DNA of 64,000 nt from Sulfurihydrogenibium sp. (GCF_028276765.1 NZ_JAPYVU010000002.1:6066-70065); one strand, 5' to 3'; positions 9,574 to 64,000 are shown, counted from the stretch's first letter. Translations and numbers: made by a program. Notes: generated by a model not told the origin, from the letters alone.

Positions 9574-9600
9574 TATATTATTTTTAAAAATCAATCTGTG

Positions 9601-30727: not shown

Positions 30728-30729
30728 CT

Positions 30730-31041: not shown

Positions 31042-31265
31042 CATTCGGAGGCTGTAAGGTTAAGGATCTCATGTTTTGATTTCTTTTAAAAGAAAAGTAG
31101 AAAGGAGCGGATGCGGATATTCCTCGGATGGCTTTAGAGAGAATAAAAAAATTAATTAATTTTTGGATTTAGTTAAAATTTTAAAGCAGTTTAAGAGCTA
31201 ATTGGCAAATTGGTATATATTATATATAAAAAACAAGCTATTGATTAAGCAGGAGGTGAAGTTTT

Positions 31266-32501: not shown

Positions 32502-32582
32502 TTTAAAAAATGAGTTTCTTTTGTACGTTATCCTTGCTTTAGTCTGAAGGATTTCCTGTTTTATTGTTATTTGAAAGAGTAA

Positions 32583-32710
32583 GAGTGTTCCAAAATTCTC
32601 GTAAGCTTACCTTTCCATATCATCCTGAGGCTGTAAGCCGAAGGATCTCCTCTTTTGATTTTTTGATTTGAAAAGAAAAACAGGAGATTCTTCGCCGGCT
32701 GCAGAATAAC
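32583..32710 (-). repeat. complete two-hairpin unit, reverse orientation
   Basis: GAGTGTTCCAAAATTCTCGTAAGCTTACCTTTCCATATCATCCTGAGGCTGTAAGCCGAAGGATCTCCTCTTTTGATTTTTTGATTTGAAAAGAAAAACAGGAGATTCTTCGCCGGCTGCAGAATAACG. Confidence 0.9.
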
Positions 32711-32903
32711 GAAAAAGTTTGCTTTTTTTCTAATGCTTGTCATTCAACCTTTCGATGTCATCTTAAGGACATAAATCCAAATGGTCTACTACTTAAAAAG
32801 ACAATAAAGAGCATGAGAATTTGGAAGTAAATTATAGTCATCTATAGCCGTACAAAGAGCCATTTGTTTTAACCAAATTCCTCATCCTGACGTATTACCT
32901 AAT

Positions 32904-34085
32904 TTAATAACTTATCAAATCTGCATCAAAACCCAAGCTCTTTAAATTAGCTTTTGCTTTAATCAAAGTCTCTTCATACTCCTTAACCGGGTCAGAATCC
33001 CAAACAATACCACTTCCAACGTAAATTGAACATCTATCCTTTGTAAAAATCATCTGTCTTATAGCTACACTCATAACAAAGTCTAAATTTGGTTTTATCA
33101 AAAACGTTGCTCCACAGTAAACAGACCTTTTTTTATCTTCAAGCTCATCTATAATTTCCATAGCCCTTTTTTTTGGTGCTCCAGTGACAGACCCGGGCGG
33201 GAACGTATTTAAAATAACTTCTTCAAAAGATAGTTTTTCTTTTAATATCCCTTTCACGGTAGAACTCATCTGAAATAGTGTTGAATACTTATCTACTTTA
33301 AAAAGCTCTTCAACTTTTACATTATTGGCTATTTTTGATAAATCATTTCTCATTAAATCTGTAATCATTAAATTTTCTGCTCTTTCTTTTTCAGAATTTA
33401 TAAGCTGATTTTTTAATACTTCATCTTCTAACTCATTTAAGCCTCTTTTTATAGTACCTTTTATTGGCTTTGTGATTATCTCTCTTCCTTTCTTTTCTAA
33501 AAAAAGCTCCATAGAACCAGAAATAAGAGAAAAATTTAGATTTTTTATAAACATCATATAAGGCGTAGGCTGAGTTTTCACAAGGTTCAAAAAGACGCTA
33601 AAAGGATAAAAAATTCCATAAACATCAATTCTATGAGATAGATTGGCTTGGTATACATCTCCTTTTGATATGTAATCTTTTATTTTCTCTACTTTTTGGA
33701 TAAATTCAGATTTCCTTGTGTTAAACTTTATCTGCTTGATTATTGATTTTTCGGATGGTAAATCTAAACGCTCTTTAAACTCAAACTTTTTATATAGATT
33801 TACAAAAATTTTAGGCAAAGCTAAATCATCCTTCTTTAAATTTTTAGAATTTAGAATGTGCTTATTAAAGTCATAACTAATAAATCCCAATGCATAAAGA
33901 TTATGTCTTTTTATAAGCTTTTCTAAAATCAGTAAAGGTCTTTTTGTTTTTATTTCATCTTCATTTATCCTAAGAATGTCATTATCATAAACGACCTTGA
34001 ATATTGGTTTTTCAAATACATAAAAACCCTTTTTATCAAGCCAACCATTTTCAGATGTGTATAAAACTGTTTGCCCTGCTTTCAT
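32904..34085 (-). CDS. pabB: chorismate-utilising enzyme, aminodeoxychorismate synthase component I-like
   Basis: 393 aa. KERAENLMITDLMRND, FPPGSVTGAPKKRAMEIIDELE and RSVYCGA. A separate full-length trpE is present at 39587. Confidence 0.75.
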   Translation of the reverse strand: MKAGQTVLYTSENGWLDKKGFYVFEKPIFKVVYDNDILRINEDEIKTKRPLLILEKLIKRHNLYALGFISYDFNKHILNSKNLKKDDLALPKIFVNLYKKFEFKERLDLPSEKSIIKQIKFNTRKSEFIQKVEKIKDYISKGDVYQANLSHRIDVYGIFYPFSVFLNLVKTQPTPYMMFIKNLNFSLISGSMELFLEKKGREIITKPIKGTIKRGLNELEDEVLKNQLINSEKERAENLMITDLMRNDLSKIANNVKVEELFKVDKYSTLFQMSSTVKGILKEKLSFEEVILNTFPPGSVTGAPKKRAMEIIDELEDKKRSVYCGATFLIKPNLDFVMSVAIRQMIFTKDRCSIYVGSGIVWDSDPVKEYEETLIKAKANLKSLGFDADLISY

Positions 34086-44211: not shown

Positions 44212-44295
44212 GGCAATTCATGAATTGTCTCTACTTTCTCGCCATTTTAAAATTTTAAATAAAGAGATCCTTCGGCCTTACGGCTTCAGGATGTT
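44212..44295 (+). repeat. box F plus B hairpin
   Basis: GGCAATTCATGAATTG (44212-44227) and GAGATCCTTCGGCCTTACGGCTTCAGGATG (about 44266-44295). Confidence 0.8.
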
Positions 44296-44307: not shown

Positions 44308-44640
44308 TCAAGTACACAAATTTTCATCAAATGGTTTTCTACTTTTTAATACACCATATGCCTGCCTTAATAACTTATGTGCTACAGCTACTAATTCTAA
44401 CTTTTTAGCTTTACCTTTACTTATTAACCTTTCGTATAATTCTCTACAGTATTTGTTAAACCTTATTGCTGATAATGCTGCCATGTATAATATCTTTCTT
44501 GCATATGGATTTCCCATTTTCTTTATCTTGCCACTTTTCTTTACACATGCTGCACTTTCATATGGACTTGGATTTAAACCAGCAAAGCTAGCTGCTTCCT
44601 TTACACTTTTAAATCCCAGATAACGGAAGTGAATTCTTAG
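44308..44640 (-). pseudogene. IS110-family transposase C-terminal fragment
   Basis: Minus-strand translation: ...LGFKSVKEAASFAGLNPSPYESAACVKKSGKIKKMGNPYARKILYMAALSAIRFNKYCRELYERLISKGKAKKLELVAVAHKLLRQAYGVLKSRKPFDE. This is the typical IS110 C-terminal domain. No N-terminal part. Confidence 0.7.
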
Positions 44641-44923
44641 GTGAGTTTACCAAAGCATTAAAGAAAAAAGATATAAAACATTATTTTAACTATCCAAGAT
44701 ATCCAAAAGGACAAGCATATGTAGAGAGAATGAATATGAAGATTACGAATTAGAAGATATTCATGAGTTTAATAAAAAGATGTTGCAATATATGCTATGG
44801 TATAACACAGAAAGACCTCATCATAGTTTAAACAAAAAATCACCTTTACAATACTTTTGTGATATTATGAATTCAAGAAAGTCGGGATTTTCCAAAACCG
44901 GTATGACCTATACAATTGCTTGA
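44619..44923 (+). pseudogene. rve (integrase-core) transposase C-terminal fragment, IS481/IS3-like, frameshifted
   Basis: DNGSEFLGEFTKALKKKDIKHYFNYPRYPKGQAYVERMN..., then after a shift ...FNKKMLQYMLWYNTERPHHSLNKKSPLQYF. Abuts the IS110 fragment. A related copy lies at 56445-56960 (-). Confidence 0.65.
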
Positions 44924-48401: not shown

Positions 48402-48727
48402 GGGCAGCACATGAATTGCCCAATACCCATCAGTCTATAGCTTTCTTGCTTTTAAAATTCTATAACTGTATTTAAGATATTCCTTGGGGGTGAGAAATTA
48501 GTGGTTTTTATAGAATTAAAAAAAAGAGAGATCCTTCGGCCTCAGGATAACAGAGAAAGATTGAATGATAAGCATTAAAGGAAAGGATAACCTTGGGGTG
48601 TCATTCTGCAGCCGGTGAAGAATCTCTTGTTTTTCTTTTGAAATCAAAAAATCAAAAGAGGAGATCCTTTAGATAAGGCTCTCAGGATGACACGGGAAAG
48701 GTAAAGTTGCAAAAATTTTGGAGCACT
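48402..48727 (+). repeat. mosaic cluster: box F, box E (reverse), B hairpin, complete D-C-B-A unit (48600-48727)
   Basis: GGGCAGCACATGAATTGCC (48402-48420), GGGTGAGAAATT (48488-48499), GAGATCCTTCGGCCTCAGGATAAC, GTCATTCTGCAGCCGGTGAAGAATCTC...GGAGATCCTTTAGATAAGGCTCTCAGGATGACACGGGAAAGGTAAAGTTGCAAAAATTTTGGAGCAC. Confidence 0.9.
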
Positions 48728-48773
48728 CTTATCTTTTGGATTTTTCGCACAAGTTATGAATAAAAATTAATTT

Positions 48774-52395: not shown

Positions 52396-54957
52396 TCAGA
52401 AATCTAAACCGATGCTAAACTCTATTCTATACTTATTTTCATTTGGTTTTGTGTCTAACTTTTTAGCATAATCAAATATTAAACTTCCAGCAGGCGTTGG
52501 AACGTAAATACCTATTCCGGCGGTTTTTCTAAAATAAGGATTTCTATATTCATCGCTTTTAGTATATACATTTCCAAGGTCTAAAAATGTTAAGAAATAT
52601 AAATTATATTTTTGATATAATGGAAACCTTAAGTCGTTGTTTATTAATAAATAACTATTTCCACCAATTTTTTGCTTTCCTGATAATTCTTCAAAGCCAA
52701 AACCTCTCATGTTTGCAATACCACCAAGAAAATATCTTTCGGCCAAAGGAAGCGTGTTAATACTTTTGAAAGAATAGCCGGTAGAAAATCTTTGACTAAG
52801 GATAAAAAAGTCTAAAAATTCTTTGTAGTATCTAAAAGAACCCTCTAAAGATTGATAATTAATATCTCCAAACGTTGTTTTGAAGTTTAAAGTGCTATAA
52901 TACCCGCTTGATGGATTAATTCTATTGTTTCTATGGTCATCTGTTAGTCCAAAACTTGTAGTTATCACTTTATAATTTTTCAGTGGTGTAAATATTCCTT
53001 CATTTGTGATAACGTTGTATTTCCTTTCTAATCTAAAACTACTTTTAACCCATTTATTATTTCTTTTTTCAAAAAACAAGTCATAACCTGAGCTTTTTAA
53101 ATCATAATTTCTATGGTACTGATTAAATAGAAATGTTGAAGCAAATCCGCTTAAATTCCATTTAAACAACCTATTCCCAAGAGAAAGTCTATAATTTGTT
53201 TGAAAGTTTGAACGTTCTATATAAGTAGAAAATTCATAACCGTAATTAAATAAGTTTCTGAGTATAACAGCAACAGAAGCTTTAAATTGCTGGTCTGTTG
53301 AATAACCAACACTGCCTTGCACTAATCCTCTTTTATCATCATGAACAATAATTGCTTTATCCACTGTCTTTCTTTCTTCCTGTGGTAGAATTAATGGATT
53401 AACATAGTCAAACAATCTTGACTCATATAGTCTAATTATAGATACATCAAAATTTTCTTTTTCAAAGTATTCTTTATTAGGAAATTGTTTTAAAATTACA
53501 TTTGGCTTAAGATGAAAGCTGCCATAAACAAAGGTTAAACCATTTCTATATCTTTGTCCAAGATTATAATCGTATGTAGCAATAACATCAATTCTATCGT
53601 TATTTTCTATCAAATCAGTCTGAAGTAATACCTCAGCATCCAAGTATCCATCTTCCCTTGCTTTTTCTTTAAATTCATTTTGTAAATTTAATAATTCTTG
53701 TGGATTATAGATTTTTGGCAGTTCAAAATCCTTTTTGACTAAATAATTCTTTTGTTTAATTTCTTTAAGAATATATTTTTTTCCTTTTTTAAATTCTACT
53801 TTTAACGTAAGTTTATCTTCATTTTTTATTTCTTCAATCTTATAATTTGCCGAAATATATCCACTTTCGTAGAGTTTTTTTACTTGTTCCTGTAAATATC
53901 TTAAAAGCTTGTTTTTATCATAAAAGTTGCCTGCAAATTTACTTATATCTGATTTTATCTCTTCATAGTCTGTATCTATAAAAATCTTATCTACTTTATA
54001 CCTTTTACCTTCGTTAATGTTGAAATTTATCTTAATATAAGGTTTTTCAGCTGACCCTTGATTTTCTTCCTGTTCCTCTACCTGAGTTATTATATCTACA
54101 TCCAAAAACCCATAAGATTTATAGAAATTCATAAGATTTTCTTTTGATAGGTCAAGCTCATTATAATTAAATCCATTTTCTTTAAATGTTAAAAGATTTA
54201 TTAATTGTTTATTGTCAAAGTTGTTATTGCCGGTGAAGTTTATAAAATACCTACTTCCTAAGTCTATGAGTATATATATGTTGGCAAAGTTATTATCCAC
54301 TTGCTCGATGTCTTGTAAAACAACAAAGGATTCAAAATATCCATTATTTTTTAAGTACTCGTTAAGTTTTTCTATAGATTCTTGCAATTTATCAAAATAA
54401 ATTATATCCCCTTTTTTTAGATTTAGAACTTTTAAAAGCTGATTTTTATCTTCTTCTGAGATTTTTTGGTCTGATAAAAATATTACATCGTTTAACTTTA
54501 CTTTTTTTCCTTCATCTATGTTAAGTCTTACAAACGCATTACCGTTTTCATCAAATTTGGTTGATATGCTCGCATTTGCAAACAAATAGCCCTTTTCTGC
54601 GTAAAACTGTTTAATTCTAAGTGGAATTGTCTTTAAAGATTCGCTATCTAAAGCACTATTTACTCTTAAACCTGTAATTCCTACTATTTCATCTTTCCAA
54701 AAAGATTTATTACCTTTTATGTCTATACTTTTTAAAAATGGCTTTCTTGTAAGAAGTATCTTATCTTCTTTAATTTCTATCTTTTCAAAGTCGTTTGTTA
54801 ATTCAAAGAGATTAGCCACATAATTTAGGTCATTTGTTATTCTTAAAATTTCTTCACCGTTATTTTTTGGTAAAGGGTAATTGGATTTTATCCTTTCTTC
54901 AGCCTTTGTAAGACCTGTAAAAAGCAAGATGATTAAAAATTTAATCTTTATTTTCAA
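52396..54957 (-). CDS. bamA: BamA/Omp85-family outer membrane protein assembly factor
   Basis: 853 aa. Signal peptide, repeated POTRA-like modules, C-terminal beta-barrel with RGF motif (LGGIANMRGFGFEELSG) and terminal aromatic residue (..IGLDF). Confidence 0.85.
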   Translation of the reverse strand: MKIKIKFLIILLFTGLTKAEERIKSNYPLPKNNGEEILRITNDLNYVANLFELTNDFEKIEIKEDKILLTRKPFLKSIDIKGNKSFWKDEIVGITGLRVNSALDSESLKTIPLRIKQFYAEKGYLFANASISTKFDENGNAFVRLNIDEGKKVKLNDVIFLSDQKISEEDKNQLLKVLNLKKGDIIYFDKLQESIEKLNEYLKNNGYFESFVVLQDIEQVDNNFANIYILIDLGSRYFINFTGNNNFDNKQLINLLTFKENGFNYNELDLSKENLMNFYKSYGFLDVDIITQVEEQEENQGSAEKPYIKINFNINEGKRYKVDKIFIDTDYEEIKSDISKFAGNFYDKNKLLRYLQEQVKKLYESGYISANYKIEEIKNEDKLTLKVEFKKGKKYILKEIKQKNYLVKKDFELPKIYNPQELLNLQNEFKEKAREDGYLDAEVLLQTDLIENNDRIDVIATYDYNLGQRYRNGLTFVYGSFHLKPNVILKQFPNKEYFEKENFDVSIIRLYESRLFDYVNPLILPQEERKTVDKAIIVHDDKRGLVQGSVGYSTDQQFKASVAVILRNLFNYGYEFSTYIERSNFQTNYRLSLGNRLFKWNLSGFASTFLFNQYHRNYDLKSSGYDLFFEKRNNKWVKSSFRLERKYNVITNEGIFTPLKNYKVITTSFGLTDDHRNNRINPSSGYYSTLNFKTTFGDINYQSLEGSFRYYKEFLDFFILSQRFSTGYSFKSINTLPLAERYFLGGIANMRGFGFEELSGKQKIGGNSYLLINNDLRFPLYQKYNLYFLTFLDLGNVYTKSDEYRNPYFRKTAGIGIYVPTPAGSLIFDYAKKLDTKPNENKYRIEFSIGLDF

Positions 54958-55036
54958 TTTCTATCTCCAAATATGGTTTAAATCATTTGAAAACAATTTA
55001 TAACATATATTATTATATTTAATTCAGGATAAAGAG

Positions 55037-55441
55037 GTGGTTTTATTGCAAAGAAGAAATACGAACCAAAGAAAAGTTATATATGAAATATTAAAATCTA
55101 CAGATATACATCCAACGGCAGATTGGATTTATGAAAGAGCAAGGAAAGTTATACCAAACATAAGTCTTGGGACAGTTTATAGAAACTTAAAAATACTAAA
55201 AGATGAAGGTTTAATCTTAGAGTTAAATGATGGAAAGCAAAGCAGATTTGACGCAAGGACTGATAATCACCTTCATTTTAAGTGTGAAATGTGTAACAGT
55301 ATTTATGATATAGATTTCAACGCTATTAGTTTACAAATTAATGATAAAATTTTAGACGTTTTTAATGTAAAAAGTGTTGATATTGTTCTAAACGGCATAT
55401 GTCCAAAATGCATAGGAGATGAACGTGAAAAGGATAATTAG
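55037..55441 (+). CDS. Fur family transcriptional regulator (Fur/PerR/Zur-like)
   Basis: 134 aa. RKVIYEIL...HPTADWIYERARKVIPNISLGTVYRNLK DNA-binding domain, HLHFKC-x2-C and C-x2-C structural zinc site. Confidence 0.88.
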   Translation: MVLLQRRNTNQRKVIYEILKSTDIHPTADWIYERARKVIPNISLGTVYRNLKILKDEGLILELNDGKQSRFDARTDNHLHFKCEMCNSIYDIDFNAISLQINDKILDVFNVKSVDIVLNGICPKCIGDEREKDN

Positions 55442-56015
55442 CCCAATAAACCTTAGAGAAGATAGGCTACCACCTGGTCAGCATTGGACGGATCGATTAA
55501 TCATTCTTGGAGTATCTGACCCTCCAGAAATAGATTTAAAATCTTATAGGTTAAAAATATTTGGAGAAGTAGAAGAGGCGGTAGTTTTAACGTGGGATGA
55601 TATCCTCTCTCTTGAAAAAGTTGAGCTTGTAGCGGATTTTCATTGTGTGACAAGATGGAGTTGTAAAGATGTCGTTTGGAGAGGTTTTCATGTAAATGAA
55701 TTAAAAAATCTTGTAAAGATAAATCCAAACGTAAAATCCGTAATGATTCATTCCTTAGATGGATATACAACCAATGTTCCAATTGAGTATTTTTTTGACG
55801 AAGATGTGATTTTTGCTTATGAATTATTCAACGGACCAATTCCGGCTGATAATGGTTATCCACTACGTTTGATAGTACCTAAGCTTTATTCTTGGAAAAG
55901 TGCTAAATTTGTAGCCGGAATAGAATTTATGCTTGAAGATAGACCGGGTTTTTGGGAGCAAAGAGGTTATCATATCTTAGGCGACCCTTGGAAAGAACAA
56001 AGATATTCTGATTAA
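55419..56015 (+). CDS. small cytoplasmic sulfite-oxidase-fold molybdopterin oxidoreductase (YuiH/YedY-like catalytic domain)
   Basis: 198 aa. LPPGQHWTDR, FHCVTRWS (Mo-ligand Cys context) and GYPLRLIVPKLYSWKSAKFV. No signal peptide. The start could be GTG 55425 (AGGAG 6 nt upstream). Confidence 0.82.
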   Translation: MNVKRIISPINLREDRLPPGQHWTDRLIILGVSDPPEIDLKSYRLKIFGEVEEAVVLTWDDILSLEKVELVADFHCVTRWSCKDVVWRGFHVNELKNLVKINPNVKSVMIHSLDGYTTNVPIEYFFDEDVIFAYELFNGPIPADNGYPLRLIVPKLYSWKSAKFVAGIEFMLEDRPGFWEQRGYHILGDPWKEQRYSD

Positions 56016-56027
56016 AGGAGAGTAAAA

Positions 56028-56318
56028 ATGGGAAAATTAAAAGTTGTAGTTGATAGAACGCTATGCGAGGGAATAGGAGTTTGCGTTCCTGAAGCACCAA
56101 AATATATAGTCTTAGATAAAAGACATAAAGCGGTAATAGTAAAGCCGGGAGATAACGTTGAAGAGCTTTTTGCAAAAGTTTCTGAGTTAAAAAGACAAGA
56201 AGCTGTATTAGATTTAACTGTAGATGAAGAAGAGGATATTTTTAGAGCAGCCGAAGCTTGTCCTGTAAAAGCAATATTCATATATGACCCAGAAACCGGA
56301 GAACAACTGTATCCATAG
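56028..56318 (+). CDS. single-cluster ferredoxin, probably [3Fe-4S] type, with internal insertion
   Basis: 96 aa. CEGIGVC (the middle Cys of CxxCxxC is replaced) plus a distal ACPV. Confidence 0.7.
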   Translation: MGKLKVVVDRTLCEGIGVCVPEAPKYIVLDKRHKAVIVKPGDNVEELFAKVSELKRQEAVLDLTVDEEEDIFRAAEACPVKAIFIYDPETGEQLYP

Positions 56319-56326
56319 GAGCCAAT

Positions 56327-56437
56327 ATGTTAGATAAAATTTATTCCATATATGAAAGAAATGTAAAGTTTGTATTATTCATAGTACCTGTAATTCTTTT
56401 TGCTGTAATGGCTTATTTGTACATTAAAAGTGTATAA
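56327..56437 (+). CDS. possible 36-aa single-TM peptide (below the track cutoff)
   Basis: AGGAG SD 5 nt before the ATG. MLDKIYSIYERNVKFVLFIVPVILFAVMAYLYIKSV. Last gene of the fur-Mo enzyme-ferredoxin string. No homology evidence. Confidence 0.3.
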   Translation: MLDKIYSIYERNVKFVLFIVPVILFAVMAYLYIKSV

Positions 56438-56444
56438 GTCATAA

Positions 56445-56960
56445 CGGTTTGGGAAAATTCTGAGTTGTTTGAATTCATAATATCACAAAAGTATGCAATA
56501 GGTGATTTCTTAAACTATGATAAGGTTTTTCTGTGTTATACCATCATATATTTTGCAACATCTTTTTATTAAATTCTTATATCTGTTCGTATACCTTTTG
56601 TCTCAAATAAAATTGCATCTACTGATTTCTCTAAAAATCTTTTACATCTTTTGCTACAAATACACAAACTTTTTACCATTTACATATTAATGTTTAGTGT
56701 CTGTTTGTACCAATTTTCCTGATTTTGTCGGTTTTTGTCTTTATATATCTTTCAGAGTTTATCTATTAAAACCTTTATTTTTCTTTTGCAAGCTTAGGAT
56801 GTTTTTCTATAACTTCTTTATCCCCGATTTTTCATAACTTTAAACTCTCGTATAATATGTCCATGCTTCTTTTAGATTGTACAGGATTTAGAGCATCTCT
56901 CGTTAAATGAAATTTATTAGTTTCATTATGATAAAATAAAAAAACAAAAATAATTCTATC
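56445..56960 (-). pseudogene. decayed rve-family (IS481/IS3-like) transposase gene
   Basis: The minus strand, with multiple stops and shifts, gives ...EVIEKHPKLAKEKIK..., LVQTDTKH-YVNGKKFVY..., AKDVKDFLEKSVDAILFETKGIRTD..., FNKKMLQ..WYNTEKPYHSL... The 3' ~150 nt are clearly homologous to 44770-44900 (+). Confidence 0.55.
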
Positions 56961-56975
56961 TAAAAGAGGACGAGA

Positions 56976-57527
56976 ATGGAAAAGTTTTTTGGTTTGATTG
57001 AACAGATATTTGAAAGGATACTGTGGGAATCAAGATTGATGGTAATTCTTGCAGTAGTTGCATCAGTGCTTGCTGCTTTGACTTTGACTATAGTAGGAAC
57101 ATATGATATCTATCTTGTTTTTAGTGAAATGTTTCATGCTTTTTCAGACCCTCAAGCCTATGAAAACTTTCATAAAGATGCTATTACCCATATTATAAGT
57201 GCAATTGATGCTTATTTAATATCAACAGTGCTTTTAATATTTGGTATTGGACTTTATGAATTGTTTATTAGTAAAATAGATTATGCGGAAAAAGAGACAA
57301 AGTCTTCTAAAATTCTTGTTATTCACTCTCTTGACCAATTAAAAGATAAGCTTGCTAAAGTTATAGTTATGGTTTTAATTGTTACATTTTTTAAACACGC
57401 TGTTAGTTTTAAGTATGAAGAAGCTTTAAACTTGCTTTATCTTTCAATAGGAATACTTTTAATAGCATTGGCTATTTACTTTTTAGCAAAATCTCATCAT
57501 GGAAAAGAACATAGCTCAGAGGAGTAA
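56976..57527 (+). CDS. YqhA-family (UPF0114) membrane protein
   Basis: 183 aa. ERILWESRLMVILAVVASVLAAL start and about 4 TM helices typical of the family. Confidence 0.75.
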   Translation: MEKFFGLIEQIFERILWESRLMVILAVVASVLAALTLTIVGTYDIYLVFSEMFHAFSDPQAYENFHKDAITHIISAIDAYLISTVLLIFGIGLYELFISKIDYAEKETKSSKILVIHSLDQLKDKLAKVIVMVLIVTFFKHAVSFKYEEALNLLYLSIGILLIALAIYFLAKSHHGKEHSSEE

Positions 57528-57530
57528 GAG

Positions 57531-59815
57531 ATGAAAGATTTTACGATGCTTAGTATATCATTAGCTTTAATTGGTGGTATTAGCTGGTTCTTTTTTGGGA
57601 AAAAGTCTAACCAGGAAAAAAATGAAAGTTTATCCGGCGAGCTAGAAACTATACAGCTTAACATCTCAGGAATGCATTGTGCAGGCTGTGCAGCTGCAGT
57701 AGAAGCAACGTTAAAAATGATGGATGGAGTTAAAGAAGCTTCTGTAAACTTTGCCACTTCAAAAGGTATTTTTACATTCGACCCAACTAAAATAACCAAA
57801 CAGCAAATAGTAGATAAAATAAAAGAACTTGGATACGATGCTTCCTTTGATTTAGAAAATTTCGAAAAAAAAAGTTAGAGGAGCTAAATAATCTAAGACA
57901 TAGGCTAATAGTTTCTATTTCTCTCTTTTCTCTTCTTGTTTTATCAATGTTTATAAAATTTCCCTACAATGAATACTTTCAGTTTATCATTGCATCAATA
58001 ATTCAGTTTTATGGTGGTTATGAGTTTTATAAATCTTCATTTATGTCTTTAAAAAATAGACTTGCAGATATGAATCTGCTTGTTTCTCTTGGAACTTTTT
58101 CAGCTTATTTATATTCTGTATCAGTCTTACTTTTTCCTTCTTTTTTTCCGGAAAACATGAGACATGTATATTTTGAAGGCTCATCTGCTATCATTACATT
58201 TGTTTTACTTGGTAGATACTTAGAACAAAAGTCAAAATTAAAAGCAACAGACTTTATGAAAAATCTACTATCTTTAAAGCCAACTTATGCAACCATCATA
58301 GTTGATGGGAAAGAGTATCAAGTAAAGGCAGAAAATATCGTTAAAGGCGATATTGTAATTGTTAGACCTGGTGACAAAATACCTGTTGATGGAATTATTA
58401 TAGAAGGTCAGACAGAGATTGAACAGTCATTTTTAACAGGGGAGTCTAACCTTGTATATAAAAAGGAAGGTGATGAAGTTTTAGGTGGAAGTATAAATAA
58501 AGTTGGTGTAATCAAGATAAAAGCAACAAAAAACGCAAAAGATAGTGTTTTAAATCAGATTATAAACCTTCTTCTTGAGGCACAATCAAAAAAGCCAAAA
58601 ATTGGTCAGCTGGCAGATAGAATATCTCAAGTTTTTGTGCCGTCTGTTTTAATCTTTGCTATTATAGTGTTTAATATTTGGTACTATCTTGGATATCCGC
58701 TAAATTTTGCCTTTACAGCAGCGTTAACTGTTCTTGTGATAGCTTGTCCTTGTGCTTTGGGACTTGCTACTCCGATTGCAATAGTTAATATCGTTGGCAG
58801 AGCTGCAAAAGAAGGAATTTTAATCAAAAATCCCGAATTAATTGAAAATCTAAAAGAGATAGGTATTGTAATTTTTGACAAAACAGGGACTTTAACAGAA
58901 GGTAAATTTCAAGTTGTAAATACATTATACAAAGGAAGTAAAGAAGAGTTAGAAATGATTTTATCTTTGGAGAAAGATATTAACCATCCTATCTCTCAAT
59001 CCATCGTAAATTTTATGAAAGAAAACGGCTTTAATTTTGTTAACATCTCTCAAAAACAGATTTTAGAAGGTAGAGGAATAATTGGTATTTTTGAAAACAA
59101 AAAGTTGTACATTGGAAATAAAAAGCTTTTTGAAGAGATTGGTATAAACATATCAGATGAATTTTTAGAATTTTTAAAGAAAAATGAAGAAAACGGCTAC
59201 ACTGTAATCTTTGGTACTGTTGATGATAAAGTTGTGCTGGCTTTGGCTGTTTCAGATAGTATAAAAAAAGAAGCTTTAGAAGTTGTAAAGTGGTTTAAAA
59301 ATAAAGGTGTAAAAACTGTTCTTCTAACAGGGGATAACGAAAAGGTAGCAAAAAATGTAGCTAAAACTCTTGGCATAGATGAGGCTTATTGGCAGTTGAC
59401 GCCAATAGATAAATATAAATTTATCAAAAACTTAAAATCAGATTATGAAAAAAGTATAGTTTTTGTAGGAGATGGAATAAATGATGCTCCCGCAATGGCT
59501 GAATGCGATGTTGGCATAGCAGTAGAATCAGCTTCTGATATTACAAAAGATGCAGGAGATATAATACTGCTAAATTCTAATCTTAAAGGTGTAATAAAGG
59601 CCGTGTTATTAGCAGAGAAAGGACTAAAAATAATAAAGCAAAATCTATTTTGGGCGTATGTATACAATTTGATTGGAATTCCTGTTGCTGCCGGCTTTTT
59701 ATATCCAATCTTTGGAATCCTACTAAATCCAATGTATGCAGGCATGGCTATGGCGTTTAGCTCAATTACGGTAGTTTTAAATGCATTGAGACTTAGAAGG
59801 ATTTCTTTAGAATGA
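57531..59815 (+). CDS. copA: copper-translocating P1B-type ATPase, interrupted by a -1 frame change in an A9 run (frame-0 ORF 57531-57878; ATPase body in frame -1, open from 57866 to 59815)
   Basis: The N-terminal ORF has one TM helix and an HMA domain (GMHCAGCAAAVE). The body has TGES, CPC (ACPCALGLATP), DKTGTLT, HP (INHPISQ) and GDGINDAP, all intact. The junction read-through gives a normal linker plus helix MA. Confidence 0.85.
57865..57874 (+). other. A9G homopolymer / A_AAA_AAG slippery motif at the copA frame junction
   Basis: g aaa aaa aaa g at 57864-57874. The frame-0 stop TAG is at 57876-57878. Confidence 0.9.
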
Positions 59816-59838
59816 GAATTATCATATAAGGGTTATTG

Positions 59839-60119
59839 GGAATGTTCTAAAATTTTTATAAGTTTACTTTTTTGTAATTCTAAGGACTTTAATCTGAAGG
59901 ATCTACTCGTTTAAAAAAGTTAGAAAGTAAGTGAACAGTGAGAGGTAAAGGAAGGAGATTCTTTGCCGGCTGCAGAATGACCAATAAGACAACCGTTAAC
60001 TTACATGTGTATGGGTAATTCATAAATTGCCCCACTCTTTTACTTTCTTTGTCACTATAGGAATTTTATCCTGAAGGAACTTGCTTTTAAATTTTATGAA
60101 AACTACTAATTTCTCACCC
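59839..60119 (-). repeat. mosaic cluster upstream of the large helicase gene: degenerate reverse unit (59839-59981), box F, box E
   Basis: GAATGTTCTAAAATTTTTATAAGTTTAC...CTGAAGGATCTAC...GGAGATTCTTTGCCGGCTGCAGAATGAC; GGGTAATTCATAAATTGCCC (60013-60032); AATTTCTCACCC (60108-60119). Confidence 0.8.
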
Positions 60120-60183
60120 CACTGAGTTATAATAAGATAATCTTAGTTTAATTTAAGCACGGTTTTAAGGGAGGGAGGCTATT

Positions 60184-63100
60184 ATGCAAGATTGTAAAGA
60201 AAAGGTAAAAAATATACTAAGCTACTATCTATTTTCAGAGATGTTTCAATTAGAACAAGAAGACTTTAAACCTGATTTTGAAGAAATAATTGACCCAGAA
60301 TCTTTTAAGAACACCATAGTTGAATGTAGAGCACAGCTTAAAGATGAAAGAAAAATTGATGTTTTTAAGGTTTATATAGGGGTTTGTAGGGTTAAAAATC
60401 TTATAGAGTACCTTCAAAGCATTGGGCTTTTAAAAGAAGATGAAGAGTTAGAAAATTTTAATCTAAACTCCTATATAGCTCTTGGATATTTTTATATCAC
60501 TAAAAACGGACATTTAATTTACTCTAATGAAAGAGCTATAAAGTATCTTCCTATTTTACCTATCATCAGGATATTTAAAAACACAAAAGACATATCAAAA
60601 GCTATAAAAGAGTATATAGAAAATCAAGAGGAAATAGAAAAACTAGATAACAAAGCGTTTTTAGATAGATGGAAAGTAGATAAAGACGAGCCAAATGTTT
60701 GTTATGTAATAGATAGTTCTTGGGTAGTACATGAAAAAACTCAGGTTAAAGATATTGAAAAACTAAAAAATCTTAAAAACTGTGTTTTATGTGCAACAGA
60801 ACAAATTTTATCTGAATTAGATGGTTTAAAGAAAAATCCAAACCCTTACATATCTTCAAAAGCCAGAAAATTCCGTACTATCATAGATGAAATGGCAAAA
60901 GAAGCCCAGAAAAATCAAGATGGAAGATTAAGCGACGGTATGTGGTATCCGTCCAAAAATAAAAAGCAAATTTTTATAATAACACCTTCTTATGAAAACC
61001 TTAACGAGAGAGAATATGGTGTTGATAAACCAGAAGATGCATCTGTTATAAAAGCTACAGTTGATATGGCATCAAAGTATTTTCCAATAGTGCTTACTAA
61101 CGATAGGACTATAAGATTAGGTATTCAAAAATATACCACCTGTTTTTGGAACAGTACATCCTTGGATAAAGATATAGGTGTTTCTGAGAGACGTATAGTA
61201 GATTCAAAATCTAGCAATAGTATAGATGTCTTAAAAGAAGAGGAAGAATTTTTTTTCAAACTTTTTGAAATAGAAGAAGAGTTCTTAGAAACATCAAGAA
61301 AGGCACTATCATCCTTTGGAAATCGTTACTTTAAAGGAACTACTATTGCAATAGAGTCCGTCTCAGAGTTTGGCGAAAATTCAGGTTATCAAAAGGCATT
61401 AGAAGATTTGCAAAATATATCTCTAAACCCTTTTTTTGAAAGTGTACAAGAACTTTTAGAAGAAGAGAAAACTTCAGAGCTTTTGAATACCTATCTTTGC
61501 GGTAAAGATATAGAATTTGACCTTTCTTCTGTAAAAAACGTTGTAGAGCTTCTTACAAAGCAAGATATACCATTAGCAAAATGGCTATCTCCTTATAATG
61601 CTTCTATGATGCAACAAATCGCTATAAATAAAGCGAATGAATTAAAAGACCAAGAGCTGATGGCTGTAAATGGACCACCAGGCACAGGAAAAACCACACT
61701 TTTAAAGGATATTATCGCAAATATAATAGTAAAAAGAGCTTTAAAGATAATAGATGTAGACTACAAAATCTTTGATAATAATGGAAAACTAATAGATGAC
61801 CTAAAAGGTTTTGGCATAGTTGTAGCCTCTAACAATAACGCGGCAGTAGAAAATATATCTATAGAACTGCCAAAAATGGACGATGACGTTAAGAAATCGC
61901 TTATTGATATAAACGAAGGTAGTTTTAGATATTTTGAAGACCTTATAAGAAAGTACTTTGAAGAGATCTCTAAAAACCAAAAACAAAGCAAAACAAAAGA
62001 TAATGAAGATGTAGATGAAGATTTAGGTATAGAAGATATAGAAGAAGCCAAGAAAAGCGAATACCTTGGATTACTGTCTATTCCCCTTGGTAATTCAACA
62101 AACAGAGATAGGGCAATTTCTCTCTTGAATGTTTTAAAAGCTGACATAGACCAAGAAGAAATTCCATCCGAGGAAGATATAAGACAAATAGGAGATAAAA
62201 TTAAAAACCTAAAATCAAAGATTGAAGAACTTTCCAAAAAACACAAGAATTACTATGCTCATCTAACAGACATAGAAAATTTGCAAAAGGAAAAAGACCA
62301 AATAGAAACTGATATAAAAACTTTAGAAAATGAACTTTCTAATCTCACAAAAGAAAAAGAATCTGTAGATGCTGAAATATTAAAACTTGAAGAAAAGAAA
62401 AAAGAGACTATCAACTTACTTGACATGCATGAAAAATCAAGACCTTCTGAATTTGCTAATTTCTTATCCATATTTTTTAAAAGCTTAAAAACAAAAATAG
62501 AAAAGTGGGAAACGCAAAAACTAAATTTGATGAATGAAAGAACAATTCTAAATCAAAAATTAGATGAAAAAGAACAATATAAACAAAAACTTCAAAAGAA
62601 AATAAATGACATACAATCAAGCTTGTCTGAGAAAAAAGCTAAGAAGGACAACATAGACAAAGAATTTTCGGTTAAGCTAAATTTTATACAAGATATGGAA
62701 TCCAACTACAAGGATATGCTGCTACCTAAGGATTTATACAAAAAGATCATATCAGGAAATCAATTAACGGAAGATGAAAAAAAGCGAATATACATGTTTA
62801 CCCCATATAATTATAATGAGTTAAACAAACTTAGAATGCAGATATTTATTGAATCTTTAAAACTTCATAAACTTCTTATTGCAAGACATAAAGAAGATTT
62901 TAAAAAAATTCTAAACGTATTCACAGCATTTTTATCAATCCCTGATAAGTTTACCAACGATACATACTCTATGGAAGATTTATTTAATACATTTTTCTTT
63001 GTTATACCGGTTACGTCTACGACCTTTCATTCTTTTGAAACACTCTTTAAAAATATGAGAAAAGCAGGTATTGGCTATCTAATAGTTGATGAAGCAGGGC

Positions 63101-64000
63101 AAGCGGTACCGCAACAAGCTATCATGCCAATTTACAAATCAAACAGAGCTATCGTGGTTGGCGACCCTCTCCAAATAGAACCTGTTGTAAGCATAACATC
63201 AGACCTTGATAAATACCTTATTAAAAGTTTTAATATAGAAGACCCAGAAAGATATCAAACAACCTCTTCTTCTGTCCAAATACTTGCAGACCATGGGTCT
63301 TCCATAGGAGCTTTTTATGAAGAGTATAGAGTAGGCATCCCATTGAATATCCATAGAAGATGCAACAATCCAATGTTTGATATAGCCAACGAAATAGCAT
63401 ATAAAGGAAGAATGATAAAAGGACAAACTGATAAAGAAAGCGTCAAAAATTTGATTCCAGATTATATTAAAGGCAAACCTCAGTCTTTATGGATTCATGT
63501 AGACTGGGAAAAAAGTAAAAAAGAAAGGCAAGTAGTTTTAGATGAGATAAAAGCTTTAAGAAAAATATTAAGAGATATTGAAAGTAGGTTAAGTCAGCAC
63601 GATATAGACATAGAAGAATTTATCAAGAGTAAAAACCTTTTTATAATTACCCCTTTTAAAGATATAAAAGAACATATTGAAAAAGAATTTAAGAAATCTT
63701 CCTCAAAACTTGAAAATGCCTTAGTAAATGAAAGCTTAGGAAAATTTATAGGTACAATACACACGTTCCAAGGAAAGGAAGCAAAAATAGTAATTATAGT
63801 ATTAGGTGGTAAAGGAGAAAGATCTATGAACTGGGTGGCATCAAAACCTAATATGCTAAATGTAGCTCTCACAAGAGCAAAAGAATATTGTTTTATTATA
63901 GGAGATAGATCTATATGGAGTAATAAACCGTACTTTAAAGAGGCTGTAAAGTATATGAATTATATAGAAAGTAAGAAATTATGGGATTCAGACTCATCCA
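60184..64000 (+). CDS. very large Upf1-like (SF1B) helicase with an unassigned N-terminal region and a long coiled-coil insertion; 3' end beyond the window
   Basis: Absent from the ORF track because it is open at the window end. ATG at 60184 after a GGGAGGGAGG SD, then 1272 uninterrupted codons. Motifs in order: NGPPGTGKTT, VVASNNNAAVENI, LIVDEAGQA, VVGDPLQIEPVV, HRRCNNPMFDIANEIAYKGRM, TIHTFQGKEAKIVII, LNVALTRAK. Confidence 0.85.
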   Translation, partial: MQDCKEKVKNILSYYLFSEMFQLEQEDFKPDFEEIIDPESFKNTIVECRAQLKDERKIDVFKVYIGVCRVKNLIEYLQSIGLLKEDEELENFNLNSYIALGYFYITKNGHLIYSNERAIKYLPILPIIRIFKNTKDISKAIKEYIENQEEIEKLDNKAFLDRWKVDKDEPNVCYVIDSSWVVHEKTQVKDIEKLKNLKNCVLCATEQILSELDGLKKNPNPYISSKARKFRTIIDEMAKEAQKNQDGRLSDGMWYPSKNKKQIFIITPSYENLNEREYGVDKPEDASVIKATVDMASKYFPIVLTNDRTIRLGIQKYTTCFWNSTSLDKDIGVSERRIVDSKSSNSIDVLKEEEEFFFKLFEIEEEFLETSRKALSSFGNRYFKGTTIAIESVSEFGENSGYQKALEDLQNISLNPFFESVQELLEEEKTSELLNTYLCGKDIEFDLSSVKNVVELLTKQDIPLAKWLSPYNASMMQQIAINKANELKDQELMAVNGPPGTGKTTLLKDIIANIIVKRALKIIDVDYKIFDNNGKLIDDLKGFGIVVASNNNAAVENISIELPKMDDDVKKSLIDINEGSFRYFEDLIRKYFEEISKNQKQSKTKDNEDVDEDLGIEDIEEAKKSEYLGLLSIPLGNSTNRDRAISLLNVLKADIDQEEIPSEEDIRQIGDKIKNLKSKIEELSKKHKNYYAHLTDIENLQKEKDQIETDIKTLENELSNLTKEKESVDAEILKLEEKKKETINLLDMHEKSRPSEFANFLSIFFKSLKTKIEKWETQKLNLMNERTILNQKLDEKEQYKQKLQKKINDIQSSLSEKKAKKDNIDKEFSVKLNFIQDMESNYKDMLLPKDLYKKIISGNQLTEDEKKRIYMFTPYNYNELNKLRMQIFIESLKLHKLLIARHKEDFKKILNVFTAFLSIPDKFTNDTYSMEDLFNTFFFVIPVTSTTFHSFETLFKNMRKAGIGYLIVDEAGQAVPQQAIMPIYKSNRAIVVGDPLQIEPVVSITSDLDKYLIKSFNIEDPERYQTTSSSVQILADHGSSIGAFYEEYRVGIPLNIHRRCNNPMFDIANEIAYKGRMIKGQTDKESVKNLIPDYIKGKPQSLWIHVDWEKSKKERQVVLDEIKALRKILRDIESRLSQHDIDIEEFIKSKNLFIITPFKDIKEHIEKEFKKSSSKLENALVNESLGKFIGTIHTFQGKEAKIVIIVLGGKGERSMNWVASKPNMLNVALTRAKEYCFIIGDRSIWSNKPYFKEAVKYMNYIESKKLWDSDSS

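What the first reader, a model, noticed from the sequence alone, without database searches (positions are those of the whole stretch)
60184..64000. Giant Upf1-like SF1 helicase, missing from the ORF track, with an unassignable ~480-aa N-terminal region and a ~390-aa coiled-coil insertion
Seen in sequence: from ATG 60184 (GGGAGGGAGG SD) the frame stays open for 1272 codons to the window end. The track lists only antisense ORFs here. Motifs occur in order: Walker A AVNGPPGTGKTTLLKDII (near 61.67 kb), Ia VVASNNNAAVENI (near 61.83 kb), II LIVDEAGQAVPQQ (near 63.08 kb), III VVGDPLQIEPVV, IV HRRCNNPMFDIANEIAYKGRM, V GTIHTFQGKEAKIVIIVLG (near 63.75 kb), VI NMLNVALTRAKEYCFIIGD. Established knowledge: DEAGQ + GDxxQ(L/I)xP + TxHxxQGxE + VAxTRA is the Upf1/DNA2-like (AAA_11/AAA_12) signature. 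Three things are unusual. (i) The first ~480 aa carry no motif I can assign (for example CYVIDSSWVVHEKT, NCVLCATEQ, FIITPSYENLNEREYG). (ii) The ~390 aa between motifs Ia and II are dominated by K/E/L/I heptad-like sequence (IKNLKSKIEELSKKHKNYYAHLTDIENLQKEKDQIETDIKTLENELSNLTKEKESVDAEILKLEEKKKE ... KLDEKEQYKQKLQKKINDIQSSLSEKKAKKDNIDKEF). This looks like a very long stalk where Upf1-type enzymes have the small 1B/1C domains. (iii) The gene follows a repeat cluster and is unrelated in function to its neighbours. Inference: Upf1-like helicases with extra N-terminal modules recur in anti-phage systems, so a defence or mobile-element surveillance role is plausible. The C-terminus and any partner genes lie beyond the window.
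Basis: partly seen in the sequence, partly recalled or inferred. Interest (0 to 1): 0.72.

Follow-up and report, generated by a model that had tools for sequence, protein, structure and literature searches.

The report
PIN-nuclease Mokosh-like helicase defence gene
This is a real, almost complete gene for a rare single-protein fusion of an SMG6-type PIN nuclease to a Upf1-like helicase, most likely an anti-phage or anti-plasmid enzyme related to the known Mokosh system but carrying a different nuclease.

Summary
The ORF is real. It runs from ATG 60184 for 1272 codons to the window end, and homologues at 86-91% identity stop only 3-9 residues later. The gene is therefore essentially complete and has no hidden C-terminal domain.

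The helicase is a bona fide Upf1-like SF1 enzyme, and its closest profile is the helicase part of MkoC (type II Mokosh). It lacks Mokosh's defining PLD nuclease.

The "unassignable" N-terminus can be assigned:
- Residues 7-139 form a domain shared with PIN-less relatives.
- Residues ~171-325 form a PIN_4 (SMG6-like) nuclease with all four acidic catalytic residues invariant.

The K/E-rich insertion is a confidently modelled antiparallel coiled-coil hairpin about 13 nm long. A large insertion at this position is found across the whole clade.

The gene is an accessory cassette of about 4 kb in a Sulfurihydrogenibium strain:
- It is absent from S. yellowstonense SS-5, from 185,579 reference genomes and from 2.9 million viral contigs.
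- It is bounded by dispersed repeats.
- Elsewhere it sits beside CRISPR, MADS-like and ZorD-like genes, transposases and conjugation genes.

Best reading: a stand-alone nuclease-helicase defence protein, a new variant of a known kind. This is unproven experimentally.

The parts
59834..60120 (.). Upstream spacer built from modules of a dispersed intergenic repeat. It contains the breakpoint of synteny with S. yellowstonense (59984-59989) and the left edge of the conserved cassette (~60108).
   Evidence: blastn. Homology to L005 ends at 59984. Homology to all helicase-bearing contigs begins at 60108-60174.
60169..60178 (+). Shine-Dalgarno-like GGGAGGGAGG, 5 nt before the ATG
   Evidence: Sequence read.
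60184..64000 (+). PIN-helicase ORF, codons 1-1272. It lacks only about 3-9 C-terminal codons and the stop.
   Evidence: Translation. Homologues of 1273-1281 aa align over 100% of it.
60202..60600 (+). Conserved N-terminal domain (aa 7-139; motifs NILxYYL and LGYFYITKxGHLI), shared with PIN-less relatives. Function unknown.
   Evidence: hhalign probability 98%, E=1.8e-13 against group B N-termini. Invariant columns. The AF2 model is only moderate here (pLDDT 50-70).
60694..61158 (+). PIN_4 / SMG6-like nuclease domain (aa ~171-325). Acidic residues D177, E211, D285 and D307, plus T205, D213 and D281, are invariant.
   Evidence: Pfam PF13638 at 24.7 bits against a cut-off of 21.9. AF2 pLDDT 81-93. 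Foldseek finds SMG6/EST1A PIN at E=3.7e-4, probability 1.0. Invariance shown, and kept in the divergent P0062.
61159..61638 (+). Linker and pre-helicase helical region (aa 326-485), ending in the clade-wide element DIPLAKWLSPYNASMMQQIAIN
   Evidence: The PADLOC MkoC profile match starts at aa 413, or aa 352 in P0013. The shared element is seen. Low pLDDT in the N-terminal model; helices in the helicase model.
61672..61695 (+). Walker A / motif I GPPGTGKT (aa 497-504)
   Evidence: Invariant in 39 sequences.
61879..63003 (+). All-helical insertion in RecA1 between motif Ia and the PVTSTTF/motif II strand (aa ~566-940). It includes an acidic disordered loop (aa ~605-612).
   Evidence: AF2 secondary structure. 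Insertion lengths across the clade.
62170..62706 (+). Antiparallel coiled-coil hairpin: helices aa 663-751 and 766-841. The tip (aa 749-765) carries P754 and S755 (invariant) and H749 and K751 (90% or more), within the 12-sequence close family.
   Evidence: AF2 model md543d2aedf12, pLDDT 84-98 along both helices and 70-75 at the tip turn. Invariant columns. Weak Pfam CT398_CC coiled-coil hairpin match.
63004..63999 (+). Rest of RecA1 and RecA2: motif II DEAGQ (aa 969-973, nt 63088-63102), III VGDPLQIEP, IV HRRCNNPM, V GTIHTFQGKE, VI NVALTRAK
   Evidence: Pfam AAA_11 943-1002 and AAA_12 1053-1242. Invariant residues in 39 sequences. Foldseek matches to Upf1-like helicases.

Best explanation
The gene encodes a stand-alone, single-polypeptide nuclease-helicase of about 1275 aa. 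It most likely protects its host against phages or other mobile DNA. It is a relative of type II Mokosh in which the C-terminal PLD nuclease is absent and an SMG6-type PIN nuclease is inserted near the N-terminus instead.

Proposed mechanism:
- The Upf1-like SF1B motor binds and translocates 5'->3' on single-stranded nucleic acid of an invader. This is inferred from the family.
- ATP-driven engagement positions or unmasks the PIN active site (D177/E211/D285/D307), which cuts the strand. RNA is the more likely substrate, because the characterised PIN_4 enzymes cited (SMG6, Swt1, PhoH2) act as RNases, and SMG6 cleaves single-stranded RNA but not single-stranded DNA. ssDNA is not excluded.
- The 13-nm coiled-coil hairpin inserted in RecA1 acts as a regulatory or recognition arm through its conserved tip. 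This last step is speculative.

Shown here: domain identities, intact catalytic residues, absence of PLD, accessory-cassette status and defence or MGE neighbourhoods. Inferred: polarity, substrate, coupling of the two activities and the immune role.
For: - ORF intact; only 3-9 aa missing.
- The helicase matches PADLOC MkoC at E=8.7e-85 over profile positions 194-960. All SF1 motifs are invariant in 39 relatives. AF2 pLDDT is 88, and Foldseek finds SETX, Dna2, Upf1 and IGHMBP2.
- PIN_4 scores above the Pfam cut-off. Foldseek finds SMG6 PIN with probability 1.0. The acidic tetrad is invariant down to 46% identity and in P0062.
- The gene is accessory. It is absent from S. yellowstonense SS-5 at the syntenic site. 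No relative was found in 185,579 species genomes. Only 4 clusters among 1.84 billion representatives carry the N-terminal module. Only 10 metagenome loci were recovered.
- Contexts vary and are rich in defence or MGE genes: mad3-like ATPases at 351 bits, ZorD/DpdE-like SNF2, a DolB-like ATPase, type IV CRISPR DinG/Csf3, Cas6, TnpB, IS fragments, an integrase and TraG/TraL.
- No partner gene is conserved.
- In Mokosh, both the helicase and the nuclease active sites are required for defence, and type II Mokosh acts as a monomer.
Against: - No experiment exists for this family.
- The window itself shows only housekeeping genes upstream and nothing downstream.
- The PIN match is weak by sequence (24.7 bits) and the N-terminal model is poor outside the PIN domain (mean pLDDT 61).
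- The defining Mokosh nuclease is missing, so the functional analogy is indirect.
- Defence-like neighbours are seen for homologues, not for this copy.
- The family is so rare that guilt by association rests on about 8 contexts.
- G+C of the ORF (30.3%) hardly differs from the rest of the window (32.1%).
Confidence: 0.55

Rival explanations
1. It is a cargo or maintenance function of mobile elements themselves: for example processing of conjugative or IS-element DNA or RNA, plasmid-versus-plasmid competition, or anti-defence. On this reading it is not host immunity.
For: The 46% branch lies inside conjugative or integrative elements (TraG/TrwB, TraL, integrase, plasmid-type type IV CRISPR) directly after a Suv3-like helicase. 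Other copies adjoin TnpB and IS fragments or an integrase.
Against: No single type of element accompanies it. In the window and in L001 no transfer or replication genes are adjacent. It is absent from 2.9 million viral contigs. PHROGs gives nothing informative. Defence genes are themselves typical cargo of such elements, so this context does not discriminate strongly.
Confidence: 0.2
2. It is an abortive-infection or toxin-like enzyme. The PIN RNase is held inactive in cis by the helicase and coiled coil. On sensing infection it degrades host as well as invader RNA, arresting the cell. This is the same protein with a different target logic.
For: PIN_4 and VapC-type PINs are classic toxins, and VapC structures appear among the fold matches. 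No antitoxin ORF is present, so control would have to be intramolecular. Relatives carry a possible HEPN-like Rx4H tail, which is motif-level evidence only.
Against: There is no direct evidence. The best fold matches are SMG6 and Fcf1-type PINs rather than VapC. Nothing is known about the Mokosh mode of action that favours this reading.
Confidence: 0.15
3. It is a housekeeping RNA-quality-control or stress-response helicase-RNase, a bacterial counterpart of PhoH2 (PIN plus PhoH) or of the eukaryotic UPF1-SMG6 pair.
For: It has the same logic as PhoH2, a PIN_4 nuclease fused to an NTPase. Its upstream neighbours in the window are housekeeping genes. PIN and Upf1-like helicase are the two enzymatic modules of nonsense-mediated decay, and Nmd4 PIN bound to Upf1 appears in both fold searches.
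Against: It is absent from the closest reference genome at the same site and from all species-representative genomes. It is extremely rare. Its contexts are variable and mobile. One copy is truncated (L027), and neighbouring genes are decayed in L003. These are the opposite of a conserved core function.
Confidence: 0.07
4. It is an ordinary type II Mokosh (MkoC) whose PLD domain simply lies beyond the window end.
For: The top PADLOC hit is MkoC, and profile positions 960-1136 (the PLD part) are unmatched.
Against: Five homologues at 86-91% identity end 3-9 residues after the window's last codon, and none of 13 full-length family members has a PLD domain. Canonical MkoC scores 1027 bits against 284 bits here.
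Confidence: 0.02

Closest known systems
Type II Mokosh, MkoC (Millman et al. 2022; bioRxiv 10.1101/2022.05.11.491447)
   Same: Both are single large polypeptides combining an Upf1-like (COG1112, AAA_11/AAA_12) helicase with a nuclease. They share idiosyncratic core motifs (AVNGPPGTGKTT, SxNNxAxxNI, PVxSTFHS, DExGQ, VGDxxQIEP) and a large insertion between motifs Ia and II. No partner gene is needed.
   Different: The C-terminal PLD (HxKx4D) nuclease is absent. A PIN_4 nuclease is inserted N-terminal to the helicase instead. The insertion is about 50-150 aa longer (420 aa against 273-371) and forms a long coiled-coil hairpin. The N-terminal domain is not detectably related to that of MkoC. The score against the MkoC profile is 284 bits, against 1027 bits for a true member.
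PIN-less relatives ('group B', P0014-P0049, annotated 'DEAD/DEAH box helicase' or 'AAA domain-containing protein')
   Same: They share the N-terminal domain (hhalign 98%), the pre-Walker element and a helicase with a 369-514 aa insertion. They are about 30% identical over roughly 64% of the query.
   Different: They have no PIN and no recognisable nuclease. Some carry a C-terminal tail of about 300 aa instead. Their function is unknown.
Eukaryotic UPF1 helicase with the SMG6 (or Nmd4) PIN endonuclease in nonsense-mediated decay
   Same: It uses the same two folds. The best PIN structural match is SMG6 and the helicase matches Upf1. SMG6 uses a D/E/D/D site equivalent to D177/E211/D285/D307.
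   Different: Here the two are fused in one chain. There are no CH, SQ, 14-3-3 or other NMD-specific domains. Common descent of the pairing is unsupported, because the fusion occurs in only about four sequence clusters.
PhoH2 (PIN_4 fused to a PhoH ATPase; mycobacteria and phages)
   Same: It has an N-terminal PIN_4 RNase fused to a P-loop NTPase that acts on RNA.
   Different: The NTPase here is a full two-RecA SF1B helicase with a coiled-coil insertion, not PhoH. The PhoH match covers only the P-loop (21 bits, below the cut-off of 27). PhoH2 is widespread, whereas this family is rare.
Dna2 and Nhi (nuclease plus Upf1-like helicase in one chain)
   Same: Both have an N-terminal nuclease followed by an SF1B Upf1-like helicase. 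Dna2 is among the top fold matches. Nhi-like systems were grouped among nuclease-NTPase defence systems with SF1 helicases.
   Different: Their nucleases are of the PD-(D/E)XK type. There is no PADLOC Nhi match for this protein.

Membership tests
Upf1-like SF1B helicases (Pfam AAA_11 + AAA_12) | Both Pfam domains score above their gathering cut-offs | tested here: met
   AAA_12 at 68.6 bits and AAA_11 at 61.6 bits, against cut-offs of 27.
Upf1-like SF1B helicases (Pfam AAA_11 + AAA_12) | Ordered motifs I, Ia, II (DExxQ), III (GDxxQ), IV, V and VI with catalytic residues intact | tested here: met
   All are present. G/K/T of motif I, E/G/Q of II, G/D/Q of III, Q/G of V and R of VI are invariant in 39 sequences.
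Upf1-like SF1B helicases (Pfam AAA_11 + AAA_12) | Two-RecA fold most similar to Upf1, Sen1, IGHMBP2 or Dna2 | tested here: met
   The AF2 model has pLDDT 88.2. Foldseek finds SETX at 8e-14, Dna2 at 2e-12 and Upf1 at 5e-12.
Upf1-like SF1B helicases (Pfam AAA_11 + AAA_12) | 5'->3' ATP-dependent translocation or unwinding | not testable with these tools
   Requires biochemistry.
Mokosh type II (MkoC) | COG1112/Upf1-type helicase related to MkoC | tested here: met
   PADLOC PDLC03924 at E=8.7e-85 and 284 bits, aa 413-1258 against profile positions 194-960 of 1136.
Mokosh type II (MkoC) | PLD-family nuclease domain (HxKx4D) at the C-terminus of the same protein | tested here: not met
   The protein ends about 46-55 aa after motif VI. 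No PLDc hit. The only HxKx4D string (HEKTQVKD, aa 184-191) is not conserved. Canonical MkoC has PLDc_2 at 905-1037.
Mokosh type II (MkoC) | Full-length match to the family profile | tested here: not met
   Profile positions 1-193 and 961-1136 are unmatched. The score is 284 bits against 1027 bits for P0050.
Mokosh type II (MkoC) | Confers phage resistance that depends on both the helicase and the nuclease active sites | not testable with these tools
   Shown for Mokosh in the paper read; untested for this family.
Mokosh type I (MkoA + MkoB) | A separate PLD gene (MkoB) next to a helicase with a kinase-like domain | tested here: not met
   There is no MkoB-like neighbour in the window or in homologous contexts. 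The L017 PLDc_2 ORF has no PADLOC match and is not conserved. There is no kinase domain. The gene downstream of this copy is unseen.
PIN_4 / SMG6-like PIN nucleases (PF13638) | Pfam match above the gathering score | tested here: met
   24.7 bits against 21.9 for aa 174-312. P0007 scores 28.8 bits. P0062 scores 18.6 bits, below the cut-off.
PIN_4 / SMG6-like PIN nucleases (PF13638) | Four conserved acidic residues at the ends of beta1, alpha2, beta3/alpha and beta4 | tested here: met
   D177, E211, D285 and D307 are invariant. They fall after strands 172-176, 200-203, 263-266 and 300-304 of the model. Compare SMG6 D1251/E1282/D1353/D1392. Residue-by-residue superposition was not done.
PIN_4 / SMG6-like PIN nucleases (PF13638) | PIN alpha/beta/alpha fold | tested here: met
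   pLDDT 81-93. Foldseek finds SMG6, EST1A, AF0591, Fcf1, Nmd4 and VapC; probability is 1.00 for the nine best hits, and TM-score normalised to the target is 0.5-0.67 for the five best.
PIN_4 / SMG6-like PIN nucleases (PF13638) | Metal-dependent endonuclease activity | not testable with these tools
   Requires biochemistry.
PhoH2 | PhoH-type ATPase domain C-terminal to the PIN | tested here: not met
   The PhoH match is 21 bits, below the cut-off of 27, and covers only aa 484-507, the P-loop.
Nhi / Dna2-type nuclease-helicases | PD-(D/E)XK nuclease domain | tested here: not met
   No such Pfam or PADLOC match was found. The nuclease is a PIN.

The most novel reading that the evidence does not exclude
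This is a guide-independent RNA-surveillance immune enzyme: a prokaryotic single-chain counterpart of the UPF1-SMG6 module. The Upf1-like motor would scan transcripts or RNA/DNA intermediates of invaders, and the fused SMG6-type PIN would cleave them. The 13-nm coiled-coil hairpin would use its conserved tip to probe a host or viral machine such as a ribosome, RNA polymerase or replisome. Together with PLD-bearing MkoC and relatives carrying other tails, it would show that the Mokosh-type helicase is a modular sensor that swaps effectors.
Probability: 0.2. Interest if true: 0.8.

Novelty: new variant of a known kind. Interest (0 to 1): 0.52.

Why it matters
Mokosh is widespread, but its mechanism is still poorly understood. 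Natural variants that keep the helicase and exchange the nuclease separate the sensor from the effector. A PIN (RNase-type) effector also supports the original suggestion that this helicase clade engages RNA or RNA/DNA intermediates.

The fusion brings together, in one bacterial chain, the two enzymatic folds of eukaryotic nonsense-mediated decay (UPF1 and SMG6). This gives a compact and presumably thermostable model for how an Upf1-like motor controls a PIN nuclease.

There is also a practical warning. Profile-based annotators are likely to label this gene 'Mokosh type II' even though it lacks the defining PLD domain.

Tried and rejected
- **PLD in the N-terminus.** The string HEKTQVKD (HxKx4D) at aa 184-191 is not conserved in the family. 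Rejected.
- **PLD beyond the window.** Homologues end 3-9 aa later. Rejected.
- **N-terminal profile against PDB sequences.** Only noise was found: a CBS protein and Cas7c at E of 0.45-0.76.
- **Word-based search with the N-terminal 480 aa.** It returned only fragments of the same family.
- **Genome-collection scan for relatives.** None were found, so no reference-genome context could be obtained.
- **Conserved partner gene.** The Suv3-like helicase, the SNF2 helicase, the 209/210-aa ORFs and the mad3-like pair are not shared between branches and are not in the window. Rejected.
- **L025 410-aa ORF.** I tested whether this ORF, which follows the helicase in L025, is the 411-aa gene that follows the ATPase in S. 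yellowstonense, which would have given a clean insertion site. The two are unrelated. Rejected.
- **HEPN domain in relatives' tails.** The ~300-aa C-tails of P0041/43/45 carry a conserved KRNxCCH (Rx4H) motif but have no Pfam support. Kept only as a lead.
- **Other scans.** Rfam and tandem-repeat scans of 54000-64000 found nothing relevant. PHROGs gave no informative family. The spacer holds no antitoxin-like ORF. The ORF shows no compositional anomaly.

Full report
**Observation**

The frame that starts at ATG 60184, five bases after GGGAGGGAGG (60169-60178), stays open for 1272 codons up to the window end. The ORF list shows only antisense ORFs there because that tool omits ORFs that run off the source.

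- Walker A GPPGTGKT at aa 497-504
- motif Ia SNNNAAVENI at aa 549
- motif II DEAGQ at aa 969
- motifs III, IV, V and VI after that

**How much is missing**

A search of 5.8 billion proteins returned 13 family members of full or near-full length. The five closest (86-91% identity, 100% coverage) are 1273-1281 aa long and end 3-9 residues after the window's last codon. One is annotated as coming from Sulfurihydrogenibium sp. The gene is therefore essentially complete, and there is no room for a further C-terminal domain.

**The helicase**

- Pfam AAA_11 and AAA_12 match above their cut-offs.
- By sequence, the closest solved structures are Upf1/NAM7, Sen1, IGHMBP2, a senataxin homologue and Dna2.
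- An AlphaFold2 model of residues 413-1272, built on 39 sequences, is confident (pLDDT 88.2, pTM 0.85).
- Its best structural matches are senataxin, Dna2, Upf1, IGHMBP2, Aquarius, Sen1, ZNFX1 and nidovirus nsp13.

Among defence-protein profiles the top hit is MkoC, the single protein of type II Mokosh. The match is E=8.7e-85 and 284 bits, but it covers only profile positions 194-960 of 1136. A canonical MkoC (P0050) scores 1027 bits and carries PLDc_2 at residues 905-1037, which corresponds to the unmatched end of the profile.

The paper that defined Mokosh describes it as a COG1112/Upf1-like helicase plus a PLD nuclease, and both active sites are required for defence. This protein meets the first criterion and fails the second. 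Its helicase is Mokosh-like, but it is not a Mokosh by definition.

**The N-terminal region**

The N-terminus is not unassignable.
- Scanned on its own, residues 174-312 match Pfam PIN_4 above the curated cut-off (24.7 bits against 21.9). The 62%-identical homologue P0007 scores 28.8 bits.
- In the family alignment D177, T205, E211, D213, D281, D285 and D307 are invariant down to 46% identity. They are also kept in the most divergent member, P0062.
- An AlphaFold2 model of residues 1-485 is poor overall (pLDDT 61) but good for residues ~170-320 (pLDDT 81-93).
- The model's best PDB matches are the PIN domains of human SMG6/EST1A (E=3.7e-4, probability 1.0). Next come archaeal PINs, Fcf1/Utp24, yeast Nmd4, HARP RNase P and VapC.
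- The acidic residues fall at the ends of strands 172-176, 200-203, 263-266 and 300-304. These are the positions of the SMG6 site D1251/E1282/D1353/D1392 described in the PIN classification.

Profile-profile comparison shows that residues 7-139 are homologous to the N-terminal domain of PIN-less relatives (98% probability, E=1.8e-13). The element KWxSxxNxSxMQQIAIN, just before Walker A, is also shared. PIN is therefore an insertion into a pre-existing scaffold of N-domain plus helicase.

An exhaustive profile search of 1.84 billion cluster representatives found the whole N-terminal module in only four clusters. All four belong to this helicase family.

**The coiled-coil insertion**

The model gives two helices of 89 and 76 residues (aa 663-751 and 766-841). 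Their pLDDT is 84-98, falling to 70-75 at the connecting turn. They form an antiparallel hairpin roughly 13 nm long, sitting on a helical base. Its tip carries P754 and S755 (invariant) and H749 and K751 (90% or more) within the 12-sequence close family.

It lies between motifs Ia and II, which is where Upf1 has its small helical 1C element and Sen1 its "prong". Those boundaries come from my own knowledge and were not tested here.

The insertion is not unique to this protein. Measured from motif Ia to motif II it is:
- 413-421 aa in the close PIN family (524 aa in the divergent P0062)
- 369-514 aa in the PIN-less relatives
- 273-371 aa in canonical MkoC

**Genomic status**

The upstream neighbours are Fur, a molybdopterin oxidoreductase, UPF0114, an HMA protein and a P-type ATPase. 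The ATPase is 95% identical to that of Sulfurihydrogenibium yellowstonense SS-5.

DNA homology with that genome runs from 56903 to 59984 and then stops. In SS-5 a different gene follows the ATPase, one that lies at 31.2-32.5 kb in the window. Homology with every other helicase-bearing contig starts only at 60108-60174.

The 368-nt spacer between the two is made of modules of a dispersed intergenic repeat with about ten further copies in the window. In L001, copies flank the helicase gene on both sides in inverted orientation.

Scans for the family's invariant peptides gave:
- no relative in 185,579 species-representative genomes
- none in 2.9 million viral contigs
- ten loci in the metagenome collection

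The gene is a rare, strain-variable cassette of about 4 kb.

**Contexts of homologues**

I saw eight different arrangements:
1. Two mad3-like ATPases (351 and 110 bits), a ZorD/DpdE-like SNF2 helicase (213 bits) and a PDC-M37B/DolB-like ATPase.
2. The same ATPases frameshifted, with TnpB and IS fragments.
3. TnpB and small ORFs.
4. A conjugative or integrative element with TraG/TrwB, TraL and an integrase.
5. A type IV-A CRISPR module with Csf3 and DinG.
6. Cas6 immediately upstream.
7. An integrase with an MT-A70 methyltransferase.
8. The window's own housekeeping flank.

No neighbour is conserved across the branches. One copy, in L027, is truncated. This pattern is typical of defence-island or mobile-element cargo and opposite to that of a core gene.

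**Interpretation**

The most likely function is a stand-alone nuclease-helicase immune protein. The Mokosh-type SF1B motor would engage invader single-stranded nucleic acid, and the fused PIN would cut it. RNA is the more probable substrate, because the PIN_4 clade contains SMG6, Swt1 and PhoH2, which act as RNases, and because the Mokosh authors proposed RNA or RNA/DNA intermediates as the trigger. The only phage restricted by type II Mokosh in one recent screen was an ssDNA phage, and that protein is monomeric. The substrate, the polarity, the coupling of the two activities and the role of the hairpin are all inferences.

Rivals, in order of plausibility:
- a function serving mobile elements themselves
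- an abortive-infection logic in which the PIN also attacks host RNA
- a housekeeping role like PhoH2, contradicted by the gene's distribution
- an ordinary MkoC with its PLD off-window, refuted by the homologues

**Novelty**

Full-text searches found no paper that describes a PIN-bearing Mokosh-type helicase or a PIN plus Upf1-like defence fusion. The design principle is known: nuclease plus helicase in one chain, as in Mokosh II, Nhi, Dna2 and PhoH2. I therefore rate this a new variant of a known kind, of moderate interest. The most striking aspect is the bacterial fusion of the two folds that work together in eukaryotic nonsense-mediated decay. Given how rare the fusion is, it is more likely convergent domain shuffling than ancestry.

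Noticed in passing
window ~4641-4822, 9442-9577, 18170-18415, 26981-27282, 29785-29897, 30609-30729, 32572-32787, 44245-44293, 48469-48736, 59834-60120: A dispersed, modular intergenic repeat family, with modules such as GTCATCCTGnGGCTGyAAGCCGAAGG and TTGCCGGCTnCAGAATGAC. Copies also flank the helicase gene in L001 (9768-9953 on +, 13916-14107 on -) and mark the rearrangement breakpoints relative to S. yellowstonense (L005 5186-5338 and 6784-6967). It looks like a REP/MITE-like recombination hotspot. Structure and mobility were not analysed.
   Followed up: partly
window 59984 versus L005 5215; window 31169-33174 versus L005 5388-7420: In S. yellowstonense SS-5 the P-type ATPase is followed by a 411-aa gene that lies about 27 kb away in this window. 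This indicates a repeat-mediated rearrangement between close relatives, or a misjoin in one of the assemblies.
   Followed up: partly
window 56428-56858 and 44617-44917: ORF-poor stretches 81-93% identical to DNA downstream of the helicase in L003/L004 (13982-15142), where rve_3/HTH transposase fragments were called. They are probably decayed IS copies.
   Followed up: no
P0041, P0043, P0044, P0045 (relatives of ~1500 aa); last ~300 residues: PIN-less relatives carry a conserved C-terminal tail in the position where MkoC has PLD. The tail has an invariant KRNxCCH (Rx4H) string reminiscent of the HEPN RNase motif. There is no Pfam match, so this is a motif-level lead for effector swapping and not a finding.
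   Followed up: partly
L017 8326-9954 and L018 3057-4682: In the 46%-identity branch the PIN-helicase gene always lies about 46 nt downstream of a Suv3-like SF2 helicase of ~541 aa (weak HamB-like PADLOC hits). This may be a two-helicase operon specific to that branch.
   Followed up: partly
L001 5232-9580; L003 6600-9800; L027 2698-7046: A pair of ABC/SMC-like ATPases (532 aa and a 920-aa UvrA-like protein) matching PADLOC mad3/mad8 sits just upstream of the helicase in several contigs. The pair is frameshifted into fragments in L003. This is a possible neighbouring defence system in decay.
   Followed up: partly
L027 (GG748558.1) 7399-10932: This copy of the gene is truncated at the equivalent of window 63647 (aa ~1155), losing motifs V-VI. 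IS-remnant-like DNA follows it. It is a probable pseudogene, consistent with a dispensable accessory gene.
   Followed up: partly
window 57531-57878 and 57947-59815: The heavy-metal-binding HMA domain (115 aa) and the P-type ATPase body (622 aa) are separate ORFs. The same split is present in S. yellowstonense (L005 2761-3108 and 3177-5045), so it is a conserved arrangement and not a sequencing frameshift.
   Followed up: partly
window 61990-62050 (aa ~603-622): An acidic low-complexity loop (KDNEDVDEDLGIEDIEE) lies at the base of the insertion. It is modelled as disordered (pLDDT below 50) and varies in length among homologues.
   Followed up: no
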